This document shows, in pieces, positions 3,861 through 53,828 of a DNA stretch of 64,000 nucleotides. Position 1 is the first letter of the stretch, and the number at the start of each line of letters is the position of its first letter. The position numbers were made by a program, and so were the translations under genes. The notes under the pieces are model-generated. The model saw nothing but the letters and a program-made list of their open reading frames with translations, had not been told where the DNA came from and ran no database searches. Origin of the DNA: an uncultured bacterium (GTDB lineage Bacteria > Nitrospirota > Nitrospiria > Nitrospirales > Nitrospiraceae); the NCBI GenBank assembly GCA_965233175.1, contig CBDDRW010000099.1, positions 1,121 to 65,120 of the forward strand. Reading direction: 5' to 3'.

Positions 3861-3963
3861 TCTGAAGATCGTTAACCGTTATTCGTTGACCGTTAACCGA
3901 AAGTCTGAATCGAATCGGACTTAAATAATATCGCGTTTCACGATTAACGTCTCACGATTAACG

Positions 3964-5349
3964 TCAAAATTTGAAGACCGGGGCATCGTTGCCGAATCGT
4001 TTCTTACGGAGTTCTTCCATCAGCTCGATAGTAATTAAGGGAATGCGGTTCTCGCGTGCGTGCTTTTCAACGCCTTTTTTCACCATGGCGCGCAAGAAAT
4101 AGGGAATTCGGCTGAGCCGTGCCTCTGAATCTTCATCCCACGCCACGGAGCTTTCTTCAGGCGTATTAAATGCGACTTTGATCTTCTCGCCGCCCTTTGG
4201 GGTGTACAGACACCATTGATCTTCGTCCAGCCAGTCGCCGTGATCGACGTAGGGGCGTGCGCGGCAACCACCACAGATATCGGTGTATTCGCAATCGCCG
4301 CACTTACCTTTCAGCTGAGGATAGCGGAAGGAATTGAAGACGTCGGACCTTTCCCATAGATCGACGAAGCTGGTCTCGCGAATATTACCGGCGGACAACG
4401 GCATGTAGGGGCACGGGGTCAACTCGCCGTTAGGGGTCACACGGGCGTAGTTGGTGCCGGCGAGGCAGCCTCCCCCCATATAGCCAGTCGCTTTCGTGAT
4501 CGGAGAATTCGGATCTTTTTCATACGCAAGCCGTTTGAAATGCGGCGCACAGCGGGCTCTGACGAGCATACCTTTGTAATTATCCTGACAATTGACTAGG
4601 TAACCGAGTACCTCTTCGTATTGTGTTGGGGTGATGTCGGTCAGTTCCTCGCCTCGGCCGGTGCAGACCATAAAAAAGACATTGAGCACTTTGGCGCCAA
4701 GTTGGTGCGCCCAATCGATTACCGAGGGCAGCTCCTGGTAATTCATAGGCTGTGCGCTGAAGTGCACTTGGAAAGCCAGCCCGTTCCGCTTACAGGCCTC
4801 GATGCCGGCAAGCGCGGCCTCCCATGCGCCGGGCACGCCTCGGAAACGATTATGTTTCTGAGAGTCGAGTGAATCGATACTGATGCCCATGCCCATCACG
4901 CCGATCTCGACCAAGGTCTTCGCCATTCGATCATCGATCAACATACCGTTGGTTCCGAACACCACCATGAAACCGAGTTTCACGGCATGCCGCGCGATAT
5001 CAAGGATGTCGGGGCGGACAAGTGGTTCGCCGCCCGTGATCACGAGGAGGCAGCCTTTGTTGACCTCAGCAATCTGATCAATCAGCTTGTAACACTCTTC
5101 CGTCGAGAGTTCATCGTCCCCGCCGGCGGATTTCGTCGTCGCATCGAGATAACAGTGGTCGCACTTGAGATTGCAGCGCTTCGTGAGGTTCAGCGCGATG
5201 AGATAGGGCTTGAAGTCATCGACTGTTCGGCCATCGTGCGGCGCAGCAGCCATAGATGGCGGGCTAAAGAACTGCGAGACCTGTTGCTGGATATTGCCGA
5301 ATGCGCCCGCTGCAGACGGGGCATTGAAAATTGGAAGCGATTTACCCAT
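3964..5349 (-). CDS. Radical SAM enzyme with SPASM domain and a C-terminal PCP_red-like module
   Basis: CNLKCDHCY (CxxxCxxC); SPASM cluster motif CGDCEYTDICGGCRARPY. C-terminal VAWDEDSEARLSRIPYFLRAMVKKGVEKHARENRIPLITIE matches the ChlB/BchB C-terminal domain pattern. Confidence 0.88.
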   Translation of the reverse strand: MGKSLPIFNAPSAAGAFGNIQQQVSQFFSPPSMAAAPHDGRTVDDFKPYLIALNLTKRCNLKCDHCYLDATTKSAGGDDELSTEECYKLIDQIAEVNKGCLLVITGGEPLVRPDILDIARHAVKLGFMVVFGTNGMLIDDRMAKTLVEIGVMGMGISIDSLDSQKHNRFRGVPGAWEAALAGIEACKRNGLAFQVHFSAQPMNYQELPSVIDWAHQLGAKVLNVFFMVCTGRGEELTDITPTQYEEVLGYLVNCQDNYKGMLVRARCAPHFKRLAYEKDPNSPITKATGYMGGGCLAGTNYARVTPNGELTPCPYMPLSAGNIRETSFVDLWERSDVFNSFRYPQLKGKCGDCEYTDICGGCRARPYVDHGDWLDEDQWCLYTPKGGEKIKVAFNTPEESSVAWDEDSEARLSRIPYFLRAMVKKGVEKHARENRIPLITIELMEELRKKRFGNDAPVFKF

Positions 5350-9349: not shown

Positions 9350-9423
9350 CGCGTTCTCAGTTAGACGTTCTCAGTTCTGAGTTCCGAACAACTCAGAACT
9401 CAAGACTCAGAACTAGGCACTGG

Positions 9424-20681: not shown

Positions 20682-23219
20682 ATGTCATCTAAAGAAAAAA
20701 AACGCGGGCAGACGAAGGAAGTCTCTAAGCCGGCAGAGCCTGCTCAAACGACCGGTACGGCTGAGGACTTTGAGAAACTCGGTGTGTTCTATCTGGGCCG
20801 GCCATACGATCTCGTCGCGAAACAGGCGAGGCCAGGCTGGCTACTCTACGATTCCAAAGACTTGGTCACGCACGCCGTCTGCGTCGGAATGACCGGCAGC
20901 GGGAAGACCGGTCTCTGCATCGGTCTGCTCGAAGAAGCGGCGATCGATGGGATTCCTGCCTTGATCATCGACCCGAAAGGCGATCTCGCCAACCTGATGC
21001 TAAGCTTTCCACAGCTTCGCGGGGAAGATTTTGCACCATGGGTCAACGAGGACGATGCCCGCAAGAAGGGTCTCTCGTCGACCGACTACGCGACCCAGCA
21101 AGCCGACATGTGGAAGAAAGGCTTGGGAGATTGGGGCCAAAGCGGCGAGCGAATTCAAAAACTCCGCGATGCGGCCGATGTGGTGGTCTACACGCCTGGC
21201 AGCAATGCAGGCATTCCTGTGTCTATCCTTAAGTCCTTTGCGGCGCCGTCGCACGAAATTCTGGGCGATCCTGAGATGTTGCGCGAGCGGATCAGCACGA
21301 CGGTCACGAGTCTGTTGGGTCTCATCGGCGTCGAGGCCGACCCGATCAAAAGCCGCGAACACATTCTGCTCTCGACGATTCTCGGCCATGCATGGAAGGC
21401 AGGACAGGATCTGGATCTCGCTACATTGATCCAGCAGATCCAGACGCCGCCAGTTTCCAAGATTGGGGTGTTGGGTCTGGATTCGTTCTATCCCTCAAAG
21501 GAACGCTTTGCTCTCGCCATGCAGCTGAATAACTTATTAGCCTCACCGGGATTTTCTGCCTGGTTGGAAGGTGACGCGCTCGACGTGGATCAGATGCTCC
21601 ATTCGCCTGGAGGCAAGCCGCGGCTCGCCATTTTTTCGATCGCACATCTCAACGATGCAGAACGCATGTTTTTTGTCACATTGCTGCTAAGCCAAACGCT
21701 TGGCTGGGTGCGGGCACAGTCCGGAACGACCAGCCTCCGTGCCATCCTCTATATGGACGAAATCTTCGGCTATTTCCCACCCGTTGCCAATCCGCCGTCG
21801 AAGCAACCCTTGCTTACGTTGTTGAAGCAGGCCCGCGCGTTCGGTCTAGGCGTAGTGTTGGCGACACAGAATCCCGTTGATCTGGACTACAAAGGCTTGG
21901 CCAATACCGGTACCTGGTTCATTGGACGCCTGCAAACTGAACGAGATAAGGCGCGCGTATTGGAAGGATTAGAGGGTGCCGCCGCAAGTAGCGGAAAAAA
22001 GTTCGATAAACAGGCGATGGAACAGACTCTGGCCGGTTTAGGCAATCGTGTGTTTCTCTTGAACAATGTGCATGAAGATGCACCGGAAATCTTTCAGACA
22101 CGATGGACTCTCTCATACCTTCGAGGACCCCTCACGCGGACGCAGATCAAGACCCTCATGGATCCCGTGAAGCGTGAAACGTTAAATGTAAAACGTGAAA
22201 CGTCTGACACCTTTCGCTCAGCACTCAGCACTCAGCACTCAGTTCTCAGCACTCAGTTCTCAGCACTCCAAGCTCGTCCCATGCTCCCACCCGATGTGCC
22301 GCAGCATTTTACCCCTGTACGAGGGAGACAACCGAATGGCAGCACGTTGGTCTACCAGCCGATGTTGCTCGGTGCGGCACAGGTACGCGTATCAGACAGC
22401 AAGGCCGGCGTCGATGTAACGCAAAATGTGGCGGTGCTTGCACCGATCTCGGATGGTGCGGTGGCGGTAGACTGGGGTCAGGCCATGGAAGCGGGCTTGG
22501 ACGTGGCTGATCTGGAGTCGGTGCCCGCAGATAGTGCGCAGTTCGGTGCAATTCCCAGTGCAGCAAGCAAAACAAAAAGCTATGAGACGTGGCGCAAGGA
22601 TTTTACCGGCTGGTTGTTTCGAAATCAGAAAGTCGATCTCTTCAAAAGCCCCAGTACAAAAGAAGTCTCCTTGCCCGGTGAATCTGAGCGAGACTTCCGT
22701 GTGCGGCTGCAGCAATCCGGCCGTGAAGCACGGGACAAACAATCGGATAGCCTGCGTCAAAAATACGCACCGAAGATTGCCGCCCTGCAAGATCGGATCA
22801 GGCGCGCAGGACACATGGTCGAACGGCAACAAGCAGAATCTCGTTCCAGTCAAATGCAAGCGGCGATTTCTGTGGGCGCCTCAATTCTCGGTGCGTTTCT
22901 GGGAAGAAAAACGATCAGCGCGACGAACATCGGCCGCGCGGCTACTGCGATTCGTGGGGCAGGACGTGCGATCAAAGAATCGAAGGATGTGGGGCAAGCT
23001 GAAGAGAATGTCTCAGCGCTCCAGCAGCAACTGGCCGACCTCGAATCTCAGTTTAAGATGGAGACCGATGCCCTCGCTGCCGCAACCGATCCCCTCACCG
23101 AGACATTCGACACCGTCTCTCTCAAACCCACCAAGGCCAACATCGCCGTGAAACTCGTCGCCCTTGCCTGGACACCTCATTGGCAGGACGGGAGGGGTGT
23201 GCTGACACCGGCTTGGTAA
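20682..23219 (+). CDS. HerA/FtsK-superfamily (DUF87/DUF853-like) P-loop ATPase with a long C-terminal extension
   Basis: Walker A GMTGSGKTG followed by IIDPKGDL; Walker B ILYMDEIFGYF; LATQNPVDLDYK. C-terminal coiled-coil-like region. Confidence 0.85.
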   Translation: MSSKEKKRGQTKEVSKPAEPAQTTGTAEDFEKLGVFYLGRPYDLVAKQARPGWLLYDSKDLVTHAVCVGMTGSGKTGLCIGLLEEAAIDGIPALIIDPKGDLANLMLSFPQLRGEDFAPWVNEDDARKKGLSSTDYATQQADMWKKGLGDWGQSGERIQKLRDAADVVVYTPGSNAGIPVSILKSFAAPSHEILGDPEMLRERISTTVTSLLGLIGVEADPIKSREHILLSTILGHAWKAGQDLDLATLIQQIQTPPVSKIGVLGLDSFYPSKERFALAMQLNNLLASPGFSAWLEGDALDVDQMLHSPGGKPRLAIFSIAHLNDAERMFFVTLLLSQTLGWVRAQSGTTSLRAILYMDEIFGYFPPVANPPSKQPLLTLLKQARAFGLGVVLATQNPVDLDYKGLANTGTWFIGRLQTERDKARVLEGLEGAAASSGKKFDKQAMEQTLAGLGNRVFLLNNVHEDAPEIFQTRWTLSYLRGPLTRTQIKTLMDPVKRETLNVKRETSDTFRSALSTQHSVLSTQFSALQARPMLPPDVPQHFTPVRGRQPNGSTLVYQPMLLGAAQVRVSDSKAGVDVTQNVAVLAPISDGAVAVDWGQAMEAGLDVADLESVPADSAQFGAIPSAASKTKSYETWRKDFTGWLFRNQKVDLFKSPSTKEVSLPGESERDFRVRLQQSGREARDKQSDSLRQKYAPKIAALQDRIRRAGHMVERQQAESRSSQMQAAISVGASILGAFLGRKTISATNIGRAATAIRGAGRAIKESKDVGQAEENVSALQQQLADLESQFKMETDALAAATDPLTETFDTVSLKPTKANIAVKLVALAWTPHWQDGRGVLTPAW

Positions 23220-34070: not shown

Positions 34071-34544
34071 TTACTTTCCCCTCACCGGGCCGCTGGTCTT
34101 GCGCAGCAGGATTTCGGCACTGCCAGGGATCAGAAAGTTCGGCATCGGGCCAACCTCCTGGTAGCCCTGTTTCTTGTAAAATTTCCGGCCCTGGTCGTTG
34201 AAGTCCGATACACAAGCGAACAAGTTCTTGACCCTCGCGAAGACGAGTGCTTCAACGTGGGCGAGCAATTGTCCACCGAGTCCCTTGCCTCTTGCCCAAT
34301 CCGCCACTCCAAACAGTTCCAAATAGTCACCGAGCAGGAATTTCTGGCGAACGATCGCGATGCCGGCCACGCTGCCGTCCTGTTCCGCGACAAAACTGTC
34401 ACGCCCCTGGGGTAGTGGTGTGAAATAGACCTCCCAATCTTTGGCTCGGTAGTCCAGACGTTTCCAAGGATCGGCGTCTGTTAATAATTCCACGACGGCG
34501 GCTCGATCGTCCGCCGCCATGGGCCGTATGATCGGCTGAGTCAT
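34071..34544 (-). CDS. GNAT family N-acetyltransferase
   Basis: Acetyl-CoA motif RGKGLGGQLLAHVE; 4-nt overlap with the upstream gene. Confidence 0.8.
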   Translation of the reverse strand: MTQPIIRPMAADDRAAVVELLTDADPWKRLDYRAKDWEVYFTPLPQGRDSFVAEQDGSVAGIAIVRQKFLLGDYLELFGVADWARGKGLGGQLLAHVEALVFARVKNLFACVSDFNDQGRKFYKKQGYQEVGPMPNFLIPGSAEILLRKTSGPVRGK

Positions 34545-35254
34545 GGCATTGCTTTGCCACAGGATAAGAGCTCGCTCACAGTCATAGGAGTAAGATTCCG
34601 ATCCGGCAAGAGATGTTGATGGAGATCTTGCACCACCTCATACGTATGTTGGCCCTTCCCGTTGGCATGCATCACGATCACGCTTCCCTTCCGGACAAAC
34701 CGCTTCAGGCGACTCTCGATTTGGATCGCCGTGAGCGTGGGGTCGGGATCGCCGGACACAACATTCCACAAAATGAATTGGAGGCCGAGTGCTCGGGCCA
34801 CATTGACCGTATCGTCGTTGAACTCTCCGTAGGGAGGACGAAACAGGGTCGCGTCATGTTGGTACTTGCTTTTGAGCAAGCGAACCGGTCCGAGCATTTC
34901 TTGCTCCTGCTCCACCGCCGAATGGAACGGCATGTGCACGTGGACCTCCCCATGGGTACCGACTTCAAAGAACGGAATCCGGAGGAGCGCCTTTACTTGT
35001 TCGTCGTGTTTGGTCATCCATTTCCCGGACATGAAGAAGGTGGCGGGAATCTTCTGCTCAATCAAATAGTCGATCAGCGCCTGATCGTAGCCCCCTCCCT
35101 TCTGCACCGGGCAGAGATCGAATGTCAACGCAACTCCTGGACAAGAGGGAGGGCCTGACTTGATCACTTGGGCCTGCGTGAAAGTAGGGATCGCTGGGAC
35201 CAGCAGCATGGTAATGACGAGGCCCAGCATCCCTGACGAGTGGCGTGATCGCAT
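34541..35254 (-). CDS. Polysaccharide deacetylase (NodB homology domain), secreted
   Basis: Signal peptide; ALTFDLCP and THGEVH metal/catalytic motifs. Confidence 0.8.
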   Translation of the reverse strand: MRSRHSSGMLGLVITMLLVPAIPTFTQAQVIKSGPPSCPGVALTFDLCPVQKGGGYDQALIDYLIEQKIPATFFMSGKWMTKHDEQVKALLRIPFFEVGTHGEVHVHMPFHSAVEQEQEMLGPVRLLKSKYQHDATLFRPPYGEFNDDTVNVARALGLQFILWNVVSGDPDPTLTAIQIESRLKRFVRKGSVIVMHANGKGQHTYEVVQDLHQHLLPDRNLTPMTVSELLSCGKAMP

Positions 35255-35500
35255 GGTGATGAGTATACCCGATCCGGAGGCTTCGGAAAAAACGATTGTA
35301 CGTTGAGGGTCTCGACGATGCGAGAACGACGCAGAGGAAAAGGTGCGTCCCTGGGCAAGGAGGCTGTCTTGGCAGACTCAGGGCGGGCGGGTGACATAGT
35401 CGCCAGGGTCGCAAGGGTGGGAAGGGAGACTTTTTCAGCAGCCTGTACGGAGGTGAGTCTGCCGTTGACGCTGGAATTCCCCTACTGTTACGGTGAAGCC

Positions 35501-36652
35501 ATGGCGTTGCCTAATTGGAAAATCGGCCGGGCGCTTGGCATCCCGATTCACCTGCATGCCTCCTGGTTTGCCGTATTCTTCTTTGTCACCTGGTCATTAG
35601 CAACAGGCTATTTACCCGACACACTGCCTGGTCTATCGGCACCACGCTATTGGGGAATGGGTGGTATTGCTGCCCTCCTGTTGTTTCTCTCTGTCCTTCT
35701 GCATGAACTAGGACATTCGTATGTGGCGCTGCGCTATCAGATCCCCATCAGACAGATTACCTTGTTCATTTTCGGGGGGATGGCGCACATGGGGAAGGAG
35801 CCTCCCAGTCCGCGGGCCGAGTTTTTGATCGCAATGGCGGGGCCACTCGTCAGCTTGATCCTGGGAGCCGTTTGTCTCGGCGGAGCCATGGCCATGGAGT
35901 CAATATTTTCACAACCAGGCATGAAAGGGCTCATCGTCCTTGGGAGTCTACTGGGAATGGTGAATATGCAGCTTGGACTGTTCAATCTGATCCCGGGGTT
36001 TCCGCTAGACGGAGGGCGGGTGTTACGGGCTGGCCTGTGGGCCCGAAACAAGGATTTTCATCGAGCCACCAGCCAGGCTGCATTTGCGGGAATAGGATTC
36101 GGTATCGCGCTCGGGTTGATCGGTGTGGTCTTGATTGGAGCAGCCTGGTCCGGGATTCTGAGTCAGTCCATCACGACGAACGGGGTTTGGCTCATGTGCA
36201 TTGGCACATTCCTCTTTGTCGCAGCCTTGACACACAAGCGGCAGACAGCCCCGCAGATGTTGTTGACGTCGGTGGCCGTCCGTGAAGTCATGGTCCAGCG
36301 CCTCGTGACCTTGCTGCCGGACATGAGTGTGCAGGACGCGGTCGATCAGTACTTTGTCGCGCAGGGATATGGCGAATTCGCTGTGTGCGAAGAGAGGCAG
36401 ATTCTGGGGGTGATCACAGTGCGAGACGTACAGGCGCTTCCTACGGCCCTCTGGTCATGGCGCCGCGTGCGCGAGATGATGCGCCCGATGTCACCGACGC
36501 TCTGCATCCCTCCGGATTGGTCCGTCATGCAGGCGATGGACCGCATGGCCCAAGCTGGCTTTGATTGTCTCGTGGTGATGGAGAACGGGGAGATGGTTGG
36601 CCTCATCACCCGGTCGGCTATCGCACAGTACGTACAGTTGCATAAAGCGTGA
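35501..36652 (+). CDS. Site-2 (M50) family metalloprotease with tandem CBS domains
   Basis: HELGHS and NLIPGFPLDGG motifs; C-terminal CBS pair. The Met at 35501 (MALPNWKIG) was chosen over the long N-terminal extension. Confidence 0.85.
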   Translation: MALPNWKIGRALGIPIHLHASWFAVFFFVTWSLATGYLPDTLPGLSAPRYWGMGGIAALLLFLSVLLHELGHSYVALRYQIPIRQITLFIFGGMAHMGKEPPSPRAEFLIAMAGPLVSLILGAVCLGGAMAMESIFSQPGMKGLIVLGSLLGMVNMQLGLFNLIPGFPLDGGRVLRAGLWARNKDFHRATSQAAFAGIGFGIALGLIGVVLIGAAWSGILSQSITTNGVWLMCIGTFLFVAALTHKRQTAPQMLLTSVAVREVMVQRLVTLLPDMSVQDAVDQYFVAQGYGEFAVCEERQILGVITVRDVQALPTALWSWRRVREMMRPMSPTLCIPPDWSVMQAMDRMAQAGFDCLVVMENGEMVGLITRSAIAQYVQLHKA

Positions 36653-36746
36653 GGCGTCAAAGGTGAAACGGACAAGGTGGGGGAAACCAGGAGGTTGAAC
36701 GGATTTGTCCTTTCACCTCTTACGTTTCACCTTTTACGCCGTACGC

Positions 36747-38150
36747 TCATTCATTCGCCTTGGAGACGGATATGTTCTGCGCAATAGAAATACGCACCAG
36801 ATGCACCACCAGCAGAAATCCATAGACGACGCAGAAGAACTTGAACGTCGCGCGGTAGAAATCCGATAGGAGGATGGGAAGACAGAGGGCAAAGAGGAGA
36901 CTTGCGATCAGCGTCATGAAGGTCAGCCGTTTACAGAATTCATGGGAGGCTTCCCGCCCGATCTGTTTCAGGGCGCGGGCATACCGATCGGCTCGTTGAA
37001 GTTTGGCTGCTTTCAAGGCTCCTTCCGCCGCACCCCAATAGCGTAAATAGCCATAGCCAACCAGGATCAACAGCCAAGGTGCTGCCCACAAAGGCCAATA
37101 GGTTGGACCTCCGTATGTTTCACTGGCAAGCAGGGCAGCGAAGGAGGGGGCATAGAGCAACCCCAACACCAGCGGCAGAATGCGCTCATCGTTCGGACGC
37201 TCACCCTCCGGTCCTCCATGAATCAGTTCACGCTCAAAGAGCGGATATCCATACTTGAGCACGACAAGCGCGATCGCTGCACTCATGGTTTTATCCGGAA
37301 CATAGCGAATCCAGTTCTGAAACCAGTTCACGATCCACCAACTCAGACTGTCACCCCACGTCAACCCAAAGAGGGAGTCGAGATAGAGATGCGCCGTCTG
37401 TTCCCATTTGAGCACACGCTGGCTCACGGACTCGGCCACGTCAGGGTTCAAGGCAAAAATCGTTTGCTCATGCAATGCCGCTTGGATCACAGTTCCCGGC
37501 AAACTCATGACGAGCGCGCCGCCGACACCAAAGATGTACAGGAACCAACCATGGGAGAGAGCGGAATTGCGCCCGGTGCGGAGATAGGTCTGAAAGCCGA
37601 GTTGCCTCGCCATCCAGCCCCAATAGAATGCGCCGGCGATGTTGACCAGCGACCAGGGGAAAATGACCACATCTCCCCCTGTTTCTGGGTACAATAACCA
37701 GTTCACAACGGAATTCGAGAGGAGCGCGACAATGGCCCCCCACCAGGGGCCCAAGAGAAACGCCACGAGTGCTGTTCCTGTCATATCGAGAAACAGGATA
37801 CTCTCCAAATGCCGGCTCAACGTCAGCCCAATGTAGTTGAGCAGCAGGCCTGCTGCGACGATGACGCTGGTTTCGTACAAGAGCAGATAGGAAACCCCTC
37901 GGAGGGGTTTTGATGAAAAAAACCCGGTCGTCGAAGGCGAGTCAGCAGTCGCACGCTCGATTGGGGACGGCGATTTTCGTTCCTTCTTCGATGTCAGCGA
38001 CGTAAAACGGGCTTTGACTTCGAGTAGCTTCTCCAGAAGAGTCAATACCGTCGCGATGAAGCCAACGACAGTGCCGCCAAGCATGAGCATGTCTTTGCTG
38101 AAATCGTCGAGCATGAAGCGGCTCCTTGTATCGGGTGCTATTGTAGCCAC
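36747..38150 (-). CDS. Polytopic membrane protein, function unknown
   Basis: At least 8 hydrophobic segments; no motif recognised. Confidence 0.6.
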   Translation of the reverse strand: MATIAPDTRSRFMLDDFSKDMLMLGGTVVGFIATVLTLLEKLLEVKARFTSLTSKKERKSPSPIERATADSPSTTGFFSSKPLRGVSYLLLYETSVIVAAGLLLNYIGLTLSRHLESILFLDMTGTALVAFLLGPWWGAIVALLSNSVVNWLLYPETGGDVVIFPWSLVNIAGAFYWGWMARQLGFQTYLRTGRNSALSHGWFLYIFGVGGALVMSLPGTVIQAALHEQTIFALNPDVAESVSQRVLKWEQTAHLYLDSLFGLTWGDSLSWWIVNWFQNWIRYVPDKTMSAAIALVVLKYGYPLFERELIHGGPEGERPNDERILPLVLGLLYAPSFAALLASETYGGPTYWPLWAAPWLLILVGYGYLRYWGAAEGALKAAKLQRADRYARALKQIGREASHEFCKRLTFMTLIASLLFALCLPILLSDFYRATFKFFCVVYGFLLVVHLVRISIAQNISVSKANE

Positions 38151-38271
38151 GAAGGGATCTCCCCACCAGAAAAAGTCCAGAAGCCAACAGGCTGATTTGG
38201 TCTAGGTAGTTGGCCTGGTGAGTCTCGTCCGATTGAGAAAACCGATGACACCAGAAGGACCCGTGATCTTC

Positions 38272-39156
38272 TTATGCCGACGGATTCTTCGGTACGGCAT
38301 GGTCTGACTGCACAGCTCTCGTCACGGCGGCTGATAGGACCTGCGCCTGCTGCTGGAGACGATGGGCGACCTCGGCGCCGAACAGCAAGAGGGCCGCGGA
38401 GTAGTACACCCATAAGAGCAGTAGAATGACTTCCAAAAGTGATCCATAGAGGTCACCGTAGACGGTCGCGTAGGTGCTATAAATCACGAACAAGAGTTTG
38501 GCAGCGACCCAGAGCAGGCTGAACGTCAGAGCCCCGATCATCGCCTCACGCCATTTTGGCCGCCTCCGAGGAACGAGCCGATACAATCCAGTGACTGAGA
38601 GGAAAGCCAGTGAGAAGGGGAGCGTATAGGCAAGAAACAGATCATGGGCTGCCAAGGCCAGGAGATCGAGCCCCCAGAGTCTTGGTGCATATCCCGTTAT
38701 AAAATTGACAGTTTGGGTTGCGATGTAGGAGAGAATCAATATCAGTCCGGTCACGCCGACCGAGGCCACCGCGATGGCGGTTGAGATGAGGGGATGGCGG
38801 CGCCAGGTACTTTCGAATACGACATTCAGCGCATAGTCAAGTTCGTAAAACACCAATCCGCCGAACCAGGCGAAGGTGAGAAATACGGCCCACCGGACGG
38901 TTTCCAACGCGCTCACTCGATGCAATTCCTTCACAACATGTTCTCCCATCGATGGGAGGAAGCCTTTGAGGAAACTGAGAAGGACCTGTTCCCCGATCAC
39001 GTCGTGACTCACCACAAAGCTCAGCCCATAGAGCAAGAGGAATACGAGCGGAAAGAGAGAAAGTAATGAGAAAAATGCAAGAGAGGCCGCTAGACTGGCG
39101 CACCCATGGCGCAGAAACGATCGAGCAAGATCTCGGAGGAAACGAAAAATCCGCAT
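38272..39156 (-). CDS. YihY/BrkB family membrane protein
   Basis: ASLAFFSLLSLFPLVFLL N-terminal signature and 6-TM layout. Confidence 0.82.
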   Translation of the reverse strand: MRIFRFLRDLARSFLRHGCASLAASLAFFSLLSLFPLVFLLLYGLSFVVSHDVIGEQVLLSFLKGFLPSMGEHVVKELHRVSALETVRWAVFLTFAWFGGLVFYELDYALNVVFESTWRRHPLISTAIAVASVGVTGLILILSYIATQTVNFITGYAPRLWGLDLLALAAHDLFLAYTLPFSLAFLSVTGLYRLVPRRRPKWREAMIGALTFSLLWVAAKLLFVIYSTYATVYGDLYGSLLEVILLLLWVYYSAALLLFGAEVAHRLQQQAQVLSAAVTRAVQSDHAVPKNPSA

Positions 39157-42284: not shown

Positions 42285-42375
42285 CGGTCAATAGTCAATT
42301 GGCAATGGGCATTGGCAAGAGAACCGCTGTGCATGATTCCCCTGGACCAGTAACCGTCGACCATTGACGCTCCTT

Positions 42376-44274: not shown

Positions 44275-44390
44275 CTAGGAGTCGTCTCTCGTCGTTCGGT
44301 CCTCGCGAAGCGCTGCAAATGAGAAGTGTCCCACTACACACAATCCGTCAGTCACGAACGACGCTTCACGTTTCACGACAGACGGTTTCT

Positions 44391-51266: not shown

Positions 51267-51339
51267 AAATTCAGCGTGAAACGTAAAAAGTGAAAGGTGA
51301 AAGGCTGTCAGAGCTCCGTATTCCAGTACATCCCACGTT

Positions 51340-51876: not shown

Positions 51877-51973
51877 TGAGTCCTCTTCTCCGACCCCTCG
51901 TGAGACGTAAGGGGTGAGGCGTAAGGGGTGCGACCTTTTCTCTCGCCTGACGCCTTACGTTTCACACCTAACG

Positions 51974-53725: not shown

Positions 53726-53828
53726 AATCGCCGTTACACGTCAGACGTAACATGTGAAACGTGAGAGTTGTGAGAACCGTGCGATTGTGCCGTCCCCCAC
53801 ACCTCACTTCTCTTTCGAATCTTCTGGC

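What the first reader, a model, noticed from the sequence alone, without database searches (positions are those of the whole stretch)
22165..22270. Spacer-type repeat words inserted in-frame in the ATPase gene, including seven tandem heptamers
CGTGAAACGT occurs twice, 21 nt apart (22173-22182 and 22194-22203), giving VKRETLNVKRET.
- It is followed by seven head-to-tail heptamers at 22218-22266: TCAGCAC x3, TCAGTTC, TCAGCAC, TCAGTTC, TCAGCAC.
- These encode SALSTQHSVLSTQFSALQ.
- Both word types (GTGAAACGT and GTTCTCAG) are otherwise found in intergenic spacers of this window.
- The ATPase linker therefore seems to have captured or expanded such an element.
- The unit length is 7 nt, so gain or loss of one unit shifts the frame and truncates the C-terminal half. 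That is a classic substrate for slipped-strand phase variation.
Basis: seen in the sequence. Interest (0 to 1): 0.62.

Follow-up and report, generated by a model that had tools for sequence, protein, structure and literature searches.

The report
Slippery heptamer repeats in ATPase linker

Summary
ORF 20682-23219 (845 aa, HerA/FtsK-like P-loop ATPase of a Nitrospira) contains a CGTGAAA-type array (22166-22203) and seven CTCAGCA-type heptamers (22217-22268). The second is the strongest period-7 array in the 4.19-Mb genome. Both word families are the two commonest heptamer-array families of this genome, and elsewhere they lie in intergenic spacers.

The segment is not an insertion into a compact protein. 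It fills an ancient, disordered, hypervariable inter-domain linker that distant homologues also have, without heptamers. In most Nitrospira orthologues the linker DNA is a heptamer-armed hairpin, like the intergenic elements. The window's allele has non-complementary arms and does not fold.

Alleles are swapped between backgrounds that are 99% identical in the flanks. Within the window's allele type, copy number changes in exact 21-nt steps, and the window carries a lineage-specific +21.

In a sister lineage with the same allele type (at least 99.8% identical genes), short-read assemblies show an in-frame form, a form lacking exactly one CTCAGCA unit (seven contigs, at least five samples) and a form lacking exactly two left-array units. 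Both deletions break the frame.

Unit slippage that truncates the C-terminal half therefore occurs in nature. Reversible, high-rate switching could not be tested. Verdict: new variant of known kinds.

The parts
20682..23219 (+). ORF of 845 aa: HerA/FtsK-like P-loop ATPase with a C-terminal coiled-coil-rich half. A core gene of Nitrospiraceae.
   Evidence: ORF list. Pfam DUF87 24.9 bits against a cut-off of 23.2. PADLOC mad8 4e-12 and HerA models. PDB HerA 2.6e-4. Present in 75 of 85 genomes of the genus, and in the phylum sample only in this family.
20844..22001 (+). HerA-like ATPase domain (about aa 55-440; Walker A GMTGSGKTG at aa 69-77).
   Evidence: Matched stretches. Invariant columns.
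22167..22274 (+). Hypervariable inter-domain linker (V496-A531), between the conserved LMDP and RPMLPPDVPQ motifs.
   Evidence: Protein alignment of 120 orthologues. DNA of about 130 loci. AF2 predicts coil here, at low confidence. Distant homologues have a P/A/S/G-rich linker at the same place.
22166..22203 (+). Left array: CGTGAAG CGTGAAA CGTTAAA TGTAAAA CGTGAAA CGT (5.4 degenerate heptamers), encoding VKRETLNVKRET.
   Evidence: TRF. Heptamer register printed.
22182..22184 (+). TTA (Leu501) codon, at the unit where a perfect CGTGAAA repeat would read TGA in this frame.
   Evidence: Frame analysis of pure repeats. The same GTTA unit is present in all A/B-type alleles. Deleting the two units CGTTAAACGTGAAG in L149 brings a TGA into frame after VKRET.
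22217..22268 (+). Right array: CTCAGCA-type heptamers x7.4 (equivalently a 14-mer x3.7), open in all three sense frames, encoding SALSTQHSVLSTQFSAL.
   Evidence: TRF score 76/90. Top array of the genome. Frames. 21 nt longer than in relatives L035, L037, L056 and L057.
22281..23216 (+). C-terminal half (M534 to the end, 312 aa), lost in frame-shifted alleles. Gene callers repeatedly call it as a separate ORF.
   Evidence: Cluster members P0124, P0125, P0130 and P0143 start at M534; P0123, P0129 and P0136 start at M561. 2865 relatives; full-length distant homologues carry it at about residue 510 onward.

Best explanation
The 22166-22268 segment is a translated member of the Nitrospira heptamer-repeat class: 7-nt 'stutter' arrays, usually paired as inverted arms, that fill intergenic spacers. 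Here it occupies the ancient, disordered linker between the HerA-like ATPase domain and the C-terminal half of a conserved Nitrospiraceae protein.

The linker tolerates almost any peptide, so its DNA evolves by the repeat class's own dynamics. These are slipped-strand gain and loss of 7-nt units, and wholesale replacement of one heptamer 'allele' by another. Selection on the protein acts mainly as a filter: it keeps the frame, so surviving length changes are mostly 21 nt (3 units, 7 codons), and it removes stop codons (the TGA to TTA change at the third left-arm unit).

The window's lineage carries an allele whose arms are not complementary (left CGTGAAA type, right CTCAGCA type). Its right arm has expanded by three units to seven. 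That makes it the longest and most slippage-prone version seen.

Single- or double-unit slips occur in nature and produce alleles that end shortly after the ATPase domain. The site is therefore a demonstrated frameshift hot spot.

Shown: the repeat anatomy, the family membership of the words, the 21-nt steps, the allele swaps, and the natural -7 and -14 alleles.

Inferred: slippage as the mechanism, selection as a filter, and the absence of a dedicated switching function.
For: 1. Anatomy and significance.
2. Same word families as intergenic arrays. A strict lag-7 census gives 20 arrays in the genome against 0-1 for lags 8-11; the top families are AAACGTG (6, plus 4 close variants) and ACTCAGC (5). 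Exact 23-25-nt matches of the right arm occur in spacers on C37, C43, C91 and C54. 30 of 87 arrays have an inverted partner within 110 nt, against 1 in the control.
3. Orthologue linkers are heptamer-periodic (lag-7 identity about 0.5 against 0.25) and mostly fold as long imperfect hairpins (z -2 to -6). The window's clade does not fold (z +0.7 to +1.6).
4. The linker is ancestral. Distant genera and other phyla have an equally long low-complexity linker without heptamers.
5. Exact 21-nt indels separate the window from L035 (two of them) and from L037 (one). 128 of 130 linkers are in frame.
6. Allele replacement. L036 has flanks 99.0% identical over 900 nt but an unrelated linker. Runs X1 and X2 hold such a strain. 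Allele type changes 31 times on the flank tree, against a minimum of 6 and 55 for shuffled labels.
7. Stop avoidance and open frames.
8. Natural slips. L140-L146 (five JGI samples, one NCBI MAG, one ENA SPAdes assembly) differ from in-frame L147/L148 by 4 synonymous SNPs in 2514 nt plus exactly one CTCAGCA unit. L149 differs from L147 by 0 SNPs plus exactly 14 nt of the left array.
Against: - No read-level data exist for the window's own strain.
- Four assemblies of its lineage show the same 7 units, so instability of this particular array is inferred from relatives.
- The arrays are short and imperfect: 3 perfect units, or a 14-mer x2.5.
- Allele swaps with no hitch-hiking flank SNPs are not explained by simple slippage. 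No donor copy was found in the genome beyond shared words.
- Retention of hairpin potential across at least six unrelated allele types could mean the nucleic-acid structure itself is selected. A pure 'neutral filler' view does not predict that.
- The -7 allele persists across five samples with only synonymous differences. That could indicate a tolerated or even useful state rather than an accident.
Confidence: 0.6

Rival explanations
1. It is a genuine SSR contingency locus. Reversible gain and loss of heptamer units toggles the cell population between the full-length 845-aa protein and a truncated ATPase-only product of about 545-611 aa, and this variation is adaptive.
For: - The unit length is not a multiple of 3 and the tract lies inside the ORF.
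- Two independent unit-exact frame-breaking alleles occur in a lineage at least 99.8% identical.
- The -7 allele is found in at least five samples and differs from the in-frame form only by synonymous SNPs.
- The window's AAABABA unit order is most simply reached from the relatives' AABA order by +7 then +14, that is through an out-of-frame intermediate (inference).
- HerA-type ATPases are common in defence systems (PADLOC mad8 4e-12), and defence genes are a class known to be phase-variable (own knowledge).
Against: - The tracts are short and imperfect.
- The repeat sits mid-gene at a domain boundary, not near the 5' end.
- The gene is a single-copy core gene with conserved synteny, not a defence-island or surface gene.
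- 128 of 130 sampled linkers are in frame, although that sample is biased towards in-frame matches.
- The unit number is identical in four assemblies of the window's lineage.
- No within-sample ON/OFF mixture and no reversion has been shown.
- The same repeat class is overwhelmingly intergenic, where frame is irrelevant.
Confidence: 0.2
2. The selected feature is the nucleic-acid structure. On this view the heptamer-armed hairpin inside the ORF acts on the mRNA or DNA (translational pause for domain folding, partial terminator or RNase site giving an ATPase-only product, or a protein-binding array), and the peptide is a by-product.
For: - Hairpin potential is retained across at least six sequence-unrelated allele types (z -2 to -6).
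- The stem base, CCCGTGA...TCACG(T/C)CC, is conserved.
- Identical architecture occurs in intergenic elements. Earlier scan notes e1-3023616 and e1-2498539 say the same, as leads only.
Against: - The window's whole clade, and the related alleles in a sister genus (L039, L043), have non-complementary arms and no significant fold.
- The most distant orthologues lack heptamers altogether.
- There is no Rfam match.
- Inverted symmetry can arise without selection, through template-switch correction of quasi-palindromes (own knowledge).
Confidence: 0.1
3. The linker peptide is under diversifying or balancing selection, for example through contact with a variable partner or a phage product. Old alleles would be kept and shuffled by recombination, and the heptamer periodicity would be incidental.
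For: - Allele types are shared across genera (the window's type occurs in L039 at 77% aa identity).
- Allele types are scattered on the flank tree (31 changes).
- Near-identical flanks carry unrelated alleles.
- P0131 and P0121 share C-terminal variants but differ in linker type.
Against: - The DNA-level 7-nt periodicity and the identity of the words with intergenic arrays are not expected from peptide selection.
- The linker is predicted unstructured (low confidence) and is compositionally free in distant homologues.
- Convergence from a small heptamer vocabulary can mimic shared alleles.
Confidence: 0.07
4. Assembly artefact: the repeat number or the frame-shifted alleles are errors of metagenome assembly.
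For: - Long-read-style contigs (L136-L139, L150) show 1-nt indels in the linker. L138 and L150 also show them elsewhere in the gene.
- Many assemblies break at the linker.
Against: - The window's linker is identical in four assemblies.
- The -7 allele is identical in seven short-read contigs from different samples and pipelines.
- The -14 allele is a clean unit-exact deletion in a MEGAHIT contig with 0 SNPs.
Confidence: 0.03

Closest known systems
SSR-mediated phase variation (contingency loci), for example tetranucleotide repeats in Haemophilus influenzae lic/mod genes, CTCTT in Neisseria opa, and 7-bp repeats at the H. influenzae hmw promoters (own knowledge; SSR phase variation reviewed in PMC12721329 and PMC4692102)
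   Same: A tandem repeat with a unit not divisible by 3 lies inside an ORF. Unit-exact gain and loss is seen among near-clonal strains. One-unit changes truncate the product.
   Different: - The host is a free-living nitrifier and the gene is a core cytoplasmic ATPase.
- The tract is short and imperfect and lies mid-gene at a domain junction.
- The tract belongs to a genome-wide, mostly intergenic repeat class.
- Reversibility and a high switching rate are not shown.
Heptanucleotide repeat arrays and inverted pairs of bacteria: Xanthomonas GGGAATC (Rehm et al. 2015, PMC4692102), cyanobacterial STRR, Beggiatoaceae TAACTGA (MacGregor 2015, PMC4679880), Geobacter metallireducens heptanucleotide elements (PMC2700814), and LSSRs of Mrazek et al. 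2007 (as cited in PMC4679880)
   Same: - 7-nt units in several word families.
- Mostly in short spacers between co-directional genes.
- Often arranged as convergent inverted pairs able to form hairpins.
- Rapid turnover in copy number.
- The Geobacter elements are also reported inside genes.
   Different: - Here the element is translated as the linker of a conserved protein.
- It is kept at one orthologous site across a family.
- It shows stop-codon avoidance and frame-filtered (21-nt) length changes.
- No paper found describes this class in Nitrospira.
Rickettsia palindromic elements (RPE) inserted in frame in protein-coding genes (Ogata et al. 2000, own knowledge; mentioned in PMC1779305 and PMC10969869)
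   Same: A dispersed palindromic repeat is translated as part of a functional protein, in a region that tolerates extra peptide.
   Different: - RPEs are 100-150-bp mobile insertions that are present or absent between orthologues.
- Here a pre-existing linker of similar length has been overwritten.
- The element is made of 7-nt tandem units and changes by slippage.
- No insertion footprint was seen.

Membership tests
SSR phase-variable (contingency) locus | Tandem simple-sequence repeat, unit not a multiple of 3, inside the ORF or its promoter | tested here: met
   Seven CTCAGCA-type heptamers at 22217-22268 and 5.4 CGTGAAA-type units at 22166-22203, inside ORF 20682-23219.
SSR phase-variable (contingency) locus | Unit-number polymorphism between closely related strains, including frame-breaking states | tested here: met
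   -7 nt (one unit) and -14 nt (two units) alleles against the in-frame allele, with 0-4 SNPs per 2514 nt, in a sister lineage of the same allele type. In-frame differences of 21 nt occur among the window's allele group. The window's own lineage shows one state only.
SSR phase-variable (contingency) locus | High-frequency, reversible switching within a clonal population | not testable with these tools
   Only Logan contigs are available. No raw reads of the source sample were found.
SSR phase-variable (contingency) locus | Tract long and perfect enough for elevated slippage | tested here: inconclusive
   The tract has 3 perfect TCAGCAC units, or TCAGCACTCAGTTC x2.5. Slips did occur in relatives at only 3 perfect units. 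No rate is known.
Heptamer-armed hairpin / STRR-like repeat class | 7-nt periodic tandem arrays using the genome's recurrent word families | tested here: met
   Lag-7 identity is 0.65 against 0.21 at other lags. The words belong to the two top families of the genome census. Exact matches to spacer arrays were found.
Heptamer-armed hairpin / STRR-like repeat class | Array faces an inverted copy and folds into a long imperfect hairpin | tested here: not met
   The window allele has MFE -19.1 and z +0.98, and its arms are not complementary. The feature is met in most orthologues (z -2 to -6).
Heptamer-armed hairpin / STRR-like repeat class | Intergenic location | tested here: not met
   The array lies deep inside an 845-aa ORF. 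Only one other strict array of 20 is truly intragenic (C91 37281-37314).
In-frame palindromic insertion (RPE-like) | Element present in some orthologues and cleanly absent from others (insertion polymorphism) | tested here: not met
   All orthologues, and distant homologues, have a linker of comparable length. Heptamer alleles replace linker content rather than adding a block.
HerA/FtsK-like P-loop ATPase | Walker A motif and a HerA central-domain profile match | tested here: met
   GMTGSGKTG at aa 69-77. PF01935 scores 24.9 bits (cut-off 23.2). NCBIfam HerA/CedD hits are weak. PDB 8wiv HerA 2.6e-4. PADLOC mad8 4.1e-12. No specific subfamily is assigned.

The most novel reading that the evidence does not exclude
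The linker is a real heptanucleotide contingency switch in a free-living nitrite oxidiser. Unit slippage would toggle between a full-length HerA-like machine and an ATPase-only form. The frequent whole-allele replacement would reflect an active process that writes or copies heptamer palindromes at defined sites. That would make the genome-wide heptamer-hairpin class a programmable source of variation, not passive filler.
Probability: 0.15. Interest if true: 0.8.

Novelty: new variant of a known kind. Interest (0 to 1): 0.55.

Why it matters
Heptamer repeat arrays are abundant in several bacterial phyla, and their function is unexplained. This locus gives them a readable phenotype for three reasons:
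- The array is translated, so every unit change is filtered by frame. Slippage events can therefore be counted directly in metagenomes (21-nt steps, and -7 and -14 knock-outs).
- It shows that SSR-driven frame switching, usually studied in host-adapted pathogens, also happens in an environmental chemolithoautotroph that matters for nitrification.
- It offers a natural 'domain deletion' series for an uncharacterised, widely distributed HerA-like ATPase family (2865 relatives of the C-terminal half).

There is also a practical consequence. The site breaks metagenome assemblies and splits gene calls, which inflates counts of 'hypothetical proteins' of 286-313 aa.

Tried and rejected
1. AlphaFold2 on a 24-sequence alignment gave mean pLDDT 38. 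It was too poor for a fold search and was used only to note predicted coil at residues 493-565.
2. Read-level heterogeneity could not be examined. All holders are Logan contigs, and none holds the window's own allele.
3. Seven short C-terminal 'proteins' in the window's own 90% cluster looked like split genes. The four I fetched (L136-L139) are from 'contig_N' assemblies, probably long-read, with 1-nt indels; L138 also has indels outside the linker. I rejected them as evidence for frame switching. They do show further hybrid linker alleles.
4. P0196 and P0253 on long contigs were not usable. L150 has several frameshifts. L151 joins the linker hairpin to a fragment of the UPF0114 gene, which is a rearrangement or a chimera.
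5. The many 312-313-aa hits are mostly on 1-2-kb contigs. I read them as assembly breaks at the linker, not as split genes.
6. A search for a donor copy of the linker elsewhere in the genome found only shared heptamer words of 25 nt or less.
7. Rfam gave no match in the window.
8. G042's frame break is +2/-1 nt, not a unit change, in a 20-contig assembly. I left it as ambiguous.
9. GTTCTCAG alone is not over-represented.
10. Literature searches for heptamer repeats in Nitrospira found nothing.
Full report
**1. Observation**

- ORF 20682-23219 (+, 845 aa) reads ...LMDPVKRETLNVKRETSDTFRSALSTQHSVLSTQFSALQARPMLPPDVPQ...
- TRF finds a CGTGAAA-type array at 22166-22203 (5.4 units). It finds a CTCAGCA-type array at 22217-22268 (7.4 units, or a 14-mer x3.7 at 94% matches, score 90).
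- A strict lag-7 detector finds this single site in the window and none in 100 shuffles.
- Among all period-7/14 arrays of the 4.19-Mb genome, this one scores highest.
- GTGAAACGT occurs 7 times against 0.56 expected, and the five copies outside the gene all lie in spacers.
- GTTCTCAG alone is not significant.

**2. The host gene**

The organism is a Nitrospira, going by the names given to homologues.
- The N-terminal part of the protein (about aa 55-440) is a HerA/FtsK-like P-loop ATPase. Evidence: Pfam DUF87 just above its cut-off, PDB HerA 2.6e-4, and PADLOC mad8 4e-12.
- The C-terminal 312 aa has no named domain. It has 2865 relatives among the library's 50%-identity cluster representatives.
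- Full-length distant homologues of 779-825 aa carry this half from about residue 510 onward. The two-part architecture is therefore old.
- In the phylum sample the gene occurs only in the family Nitrospiraceae. It is present in 75 of 85 genomes of the genus, with conserved neighbours.

**3. The segment is a linker, not an insertion**
- In 120 orthologues that are 85-94% identical overall, the stretch between LMDP and RPMLPPDVPQ is hypervariable in sequence and length.
- The most distant Nitrospiraceae (L040, L044, L048, L050) have a linker of similar or greater length without heptamer periodicity. So do homologues of about 40-46% identity from the protein library, whose source organisms are not known (P0288, P0297, P0368 and others). 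Those linkers are rich in P/A/S/G.
- AF2 gave a poor model (pLDDT 38) but predicts coil at residues 493-565.

**4. The linker DNA belongs to the genome's heptamer-repeat class**
- A strict census gives 20 lag-7 arrays in the genome, against 0-1 for lags 8-11. The two top families are AAACGTG (the same unit as CGTGAAA) and ACTCAGC (the same unit as CTCAGCA). These are exactly the two families in the linker.
- Period-7/14 arrays are enriched outside ORFs: about half lie outside, against 16% non-coding sequence.
- They typically fill short spacers between co-directional genes.
- 30 of 87 arrays face an inverted copy within 110 nt, against 1 in the control.
- Notes from earlier stages of this scan on other Nitrospira genomes describe the same class. 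I treat them as leads only.
- In most orthologues the linker has that architecture: left arm (GTGAAAC, GTGAGGG, GGCAAGG or CGTCAAT)n, a loop, then the complementary right arm. It folds with z -2 to -6.
- The window's clade (L001, L006, L007, L035, L037) is the exception. It has a CGTGAAA left arm and a CTCAGCA right arm, no significant fold (z +0.7 to +1.6), and the strongest 7-nt periodicity (0.57-0.66).
- Only one other strict array in the genome is clearly intragenic: C91 37281-37314, translated as NVRGEGLGVRGE in a 1455-aa ORF.

**5. Signs of selection acting on a repeat background**
- A pure CGTGAAA array gives TGA every 21 nt in any frame. In the gene the critical unit is CGTTAAA (TTA, 22182-22184), and the same substitution is seen across alleles.
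- The right-arm units (TCAGCAC, GTTTCAC, CCTCACG) are open in all three sense frames. This fits their higher repeat perfection.

**6. How the linker changes**

(a) *In-frame steps.* Compared with the window, L035 (94% identical) has two exact 21-nt deletions, one in each array. L037 (86% identical) has one. All other alleles of this type have four right-arm units where the window has seven.

(b) *Allele replacement.*
- L036 is 99.0% identical over 900 nt of flanks, and 99-100% in most 90-nt windows, yet it has an unrelated linker. Runs X1 and X2 contain such a strain.
- On a tree of the flanks, allele type changes 31 times. The minimum possible is 6, and shuffled labels give about 55.
- The window's allele type also occurs in a sister genus (L039).

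(c) *Frame-breaking unit slips.* These occur in the P0039 lineage, which has the same allele type with 12 heptamers.
- L147 and L148 are in frame.
- L140-L146 come from five JGI samples, NCBI GCA_034440335.1 and an ENA SPAdes assembly. They differ from L147 by four synonymous SNPs in 2514 nt plus the loss of exactly one CTCAGCA unit. This gives ORFs of 544 aa and 286 aa.
- L149 is a MEGAHIT contig from another sample. It differs from L147 by no SNP and by the loss of exactly CGTTAAACGTGAAG, which brings TGA into frame after VKRET.

In the window itself, loss of one unit would end the protein at aa 576, and gain of one unit at aa 611.

**7. Caveats on frame-shift frequency**
- In the genus sample, breaks also occur elsewhere in the gene: G031 at about aa 297, G059 at about aa 97, and G047, G201 and G202 at several places. 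G183 has an N-gap over the linker.
- G042's linker lesion is not a unit change.
- Contigs L136-L139 and L150 are probably long-read assemblies. They show 1-nt indels, and some have them outside the linker too.
- The 80 metagenome loci were selected for full-length matches, so the figure of 128/130 in frame is biased.
- Many 312-313-aa hits sit on 1-2-kb contigs, which shows that assemblies often break at the linker.
- Four assemblies of the window's lineage share the identical 7-unit array.
- No raw reads were available.

**8. Interpretation**

The best-supported reading is that an ancient, unconstrained linker has been colonised by the Nitrospira heptamer-repeat class and now evolves by that class's dynamics, slippage and replacement, filtered by frame and stop avoidance. 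The site is a demonstrated hot spot for unit-exact frameshifts that remove the C-terminal half.

Three questions remain open:
- whether cells exploit this as a reversible switch (rival 1);
- whether the hairpin itself is functional (rival 2);
- whether the peptide is under diversifying selection (rival 3).

'Captured/expanded element' and 'unit change truncates the protein' hold. 'Inserted' and 'classic phase variation' need qualification.

**9. Comparison with what is known**

The case combines features of three known kinds:
- SSR contingency loci;
- the heptanucleotide array and inverted-pair class described in Xanthomonas and Nostoc (PMC4692102), Beggiatoaceae (PMC4679880), Geobacter (PMC2700814) and cyanobacteria (STRR);
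- in-frame palindromic elements such as the Rickettsia RPEs.

No paper describing this repeat class in Nitrospira was found. I rate it a new variant of known kinds.

Noticed in passing
window 3869-3965, 9353-9414, 36711-36738, 42296-42318, 44340-44376, 51276-51304, 51900-51965, 53740-53770: Short intergenic spacers are filled by degenerate heptamer arrays. Several form inverted pairs, for example 9353-9414 (GTTCTGAGTT...AACTCAGAAC) and 51900-51965 (GTGAGACGTAAGGG... / ...CCTTACGTTTCAC). These belong to the same class as the linker.
   Followed up: partly
genome contig C91 37281-37314 (outside the window): This is a second translated heptamer array: GTGAGGG-type units encode ...ELNVRGEGLGVRGEAQEVRG... 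inside a 1455-aa ORF (34461-38825, +). No obvious inverted arm is present.
   Followed up: partly
L151 (NCBI GCA_015903955.1, JABMDM010000019.1), locus 1860-2100: The C-terminal half of the ATPase is preceded by a complete GTAAGGG/CCCTCAC hairpin. Upstream of that lies a fragment of the UPF0114 gene's 3' end on the opposite strand instead of the ATPase domain. This is either a rearrangement or a chimeric join at the hairpin.
   Followed up: partly
window 22184/22281 (edges of the linker) in runs X1-X4 and in many 1-2-kb metagenome contigs: Metagenome assemblies frequently end or switch at the linker edges. Heptamer words from many loci also pile up there (word depth 55-310 at 22212-22259). The result is large numbers of separately called ORFs of 312-313 aa that start at M534.
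   Followed up: partly
ATPase gene at about aa 292-300 (window about 21555-21580) in G031, G202 and L150: Three assemblies have a frame break near the same position (aa about 297). In G031 it is a deletion of about 20 nt. The other two assemblies carry several frame breaks in this gene and may be error-prone. It could be a second weak spot or coincidence.
   Followed up: partly
genome contig C97 53877-53917 and upstream (outside the window): A GTGAAAC/GTTTCAC heptamer hairpin lies immediately upstream of the probable true start (MPDLRRDPIVGRW...) of an ORF that looks like galT by eye (not searched). Longest-ORF calling wrongly absorbs the hairpin into the gene.
   Followed up: no
L105/L101 versus L123/L113/L040 (a sister genus): With flanks 93-96% identical, one set has a heptamer-type linker (QKRETSNVKRH...SRMTPT) and the other a GC-rich non-heptamer linker (IKRERPAEAGQS...). 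This looks like a recent replacement between the two kinds of linker.
   Followed up: no
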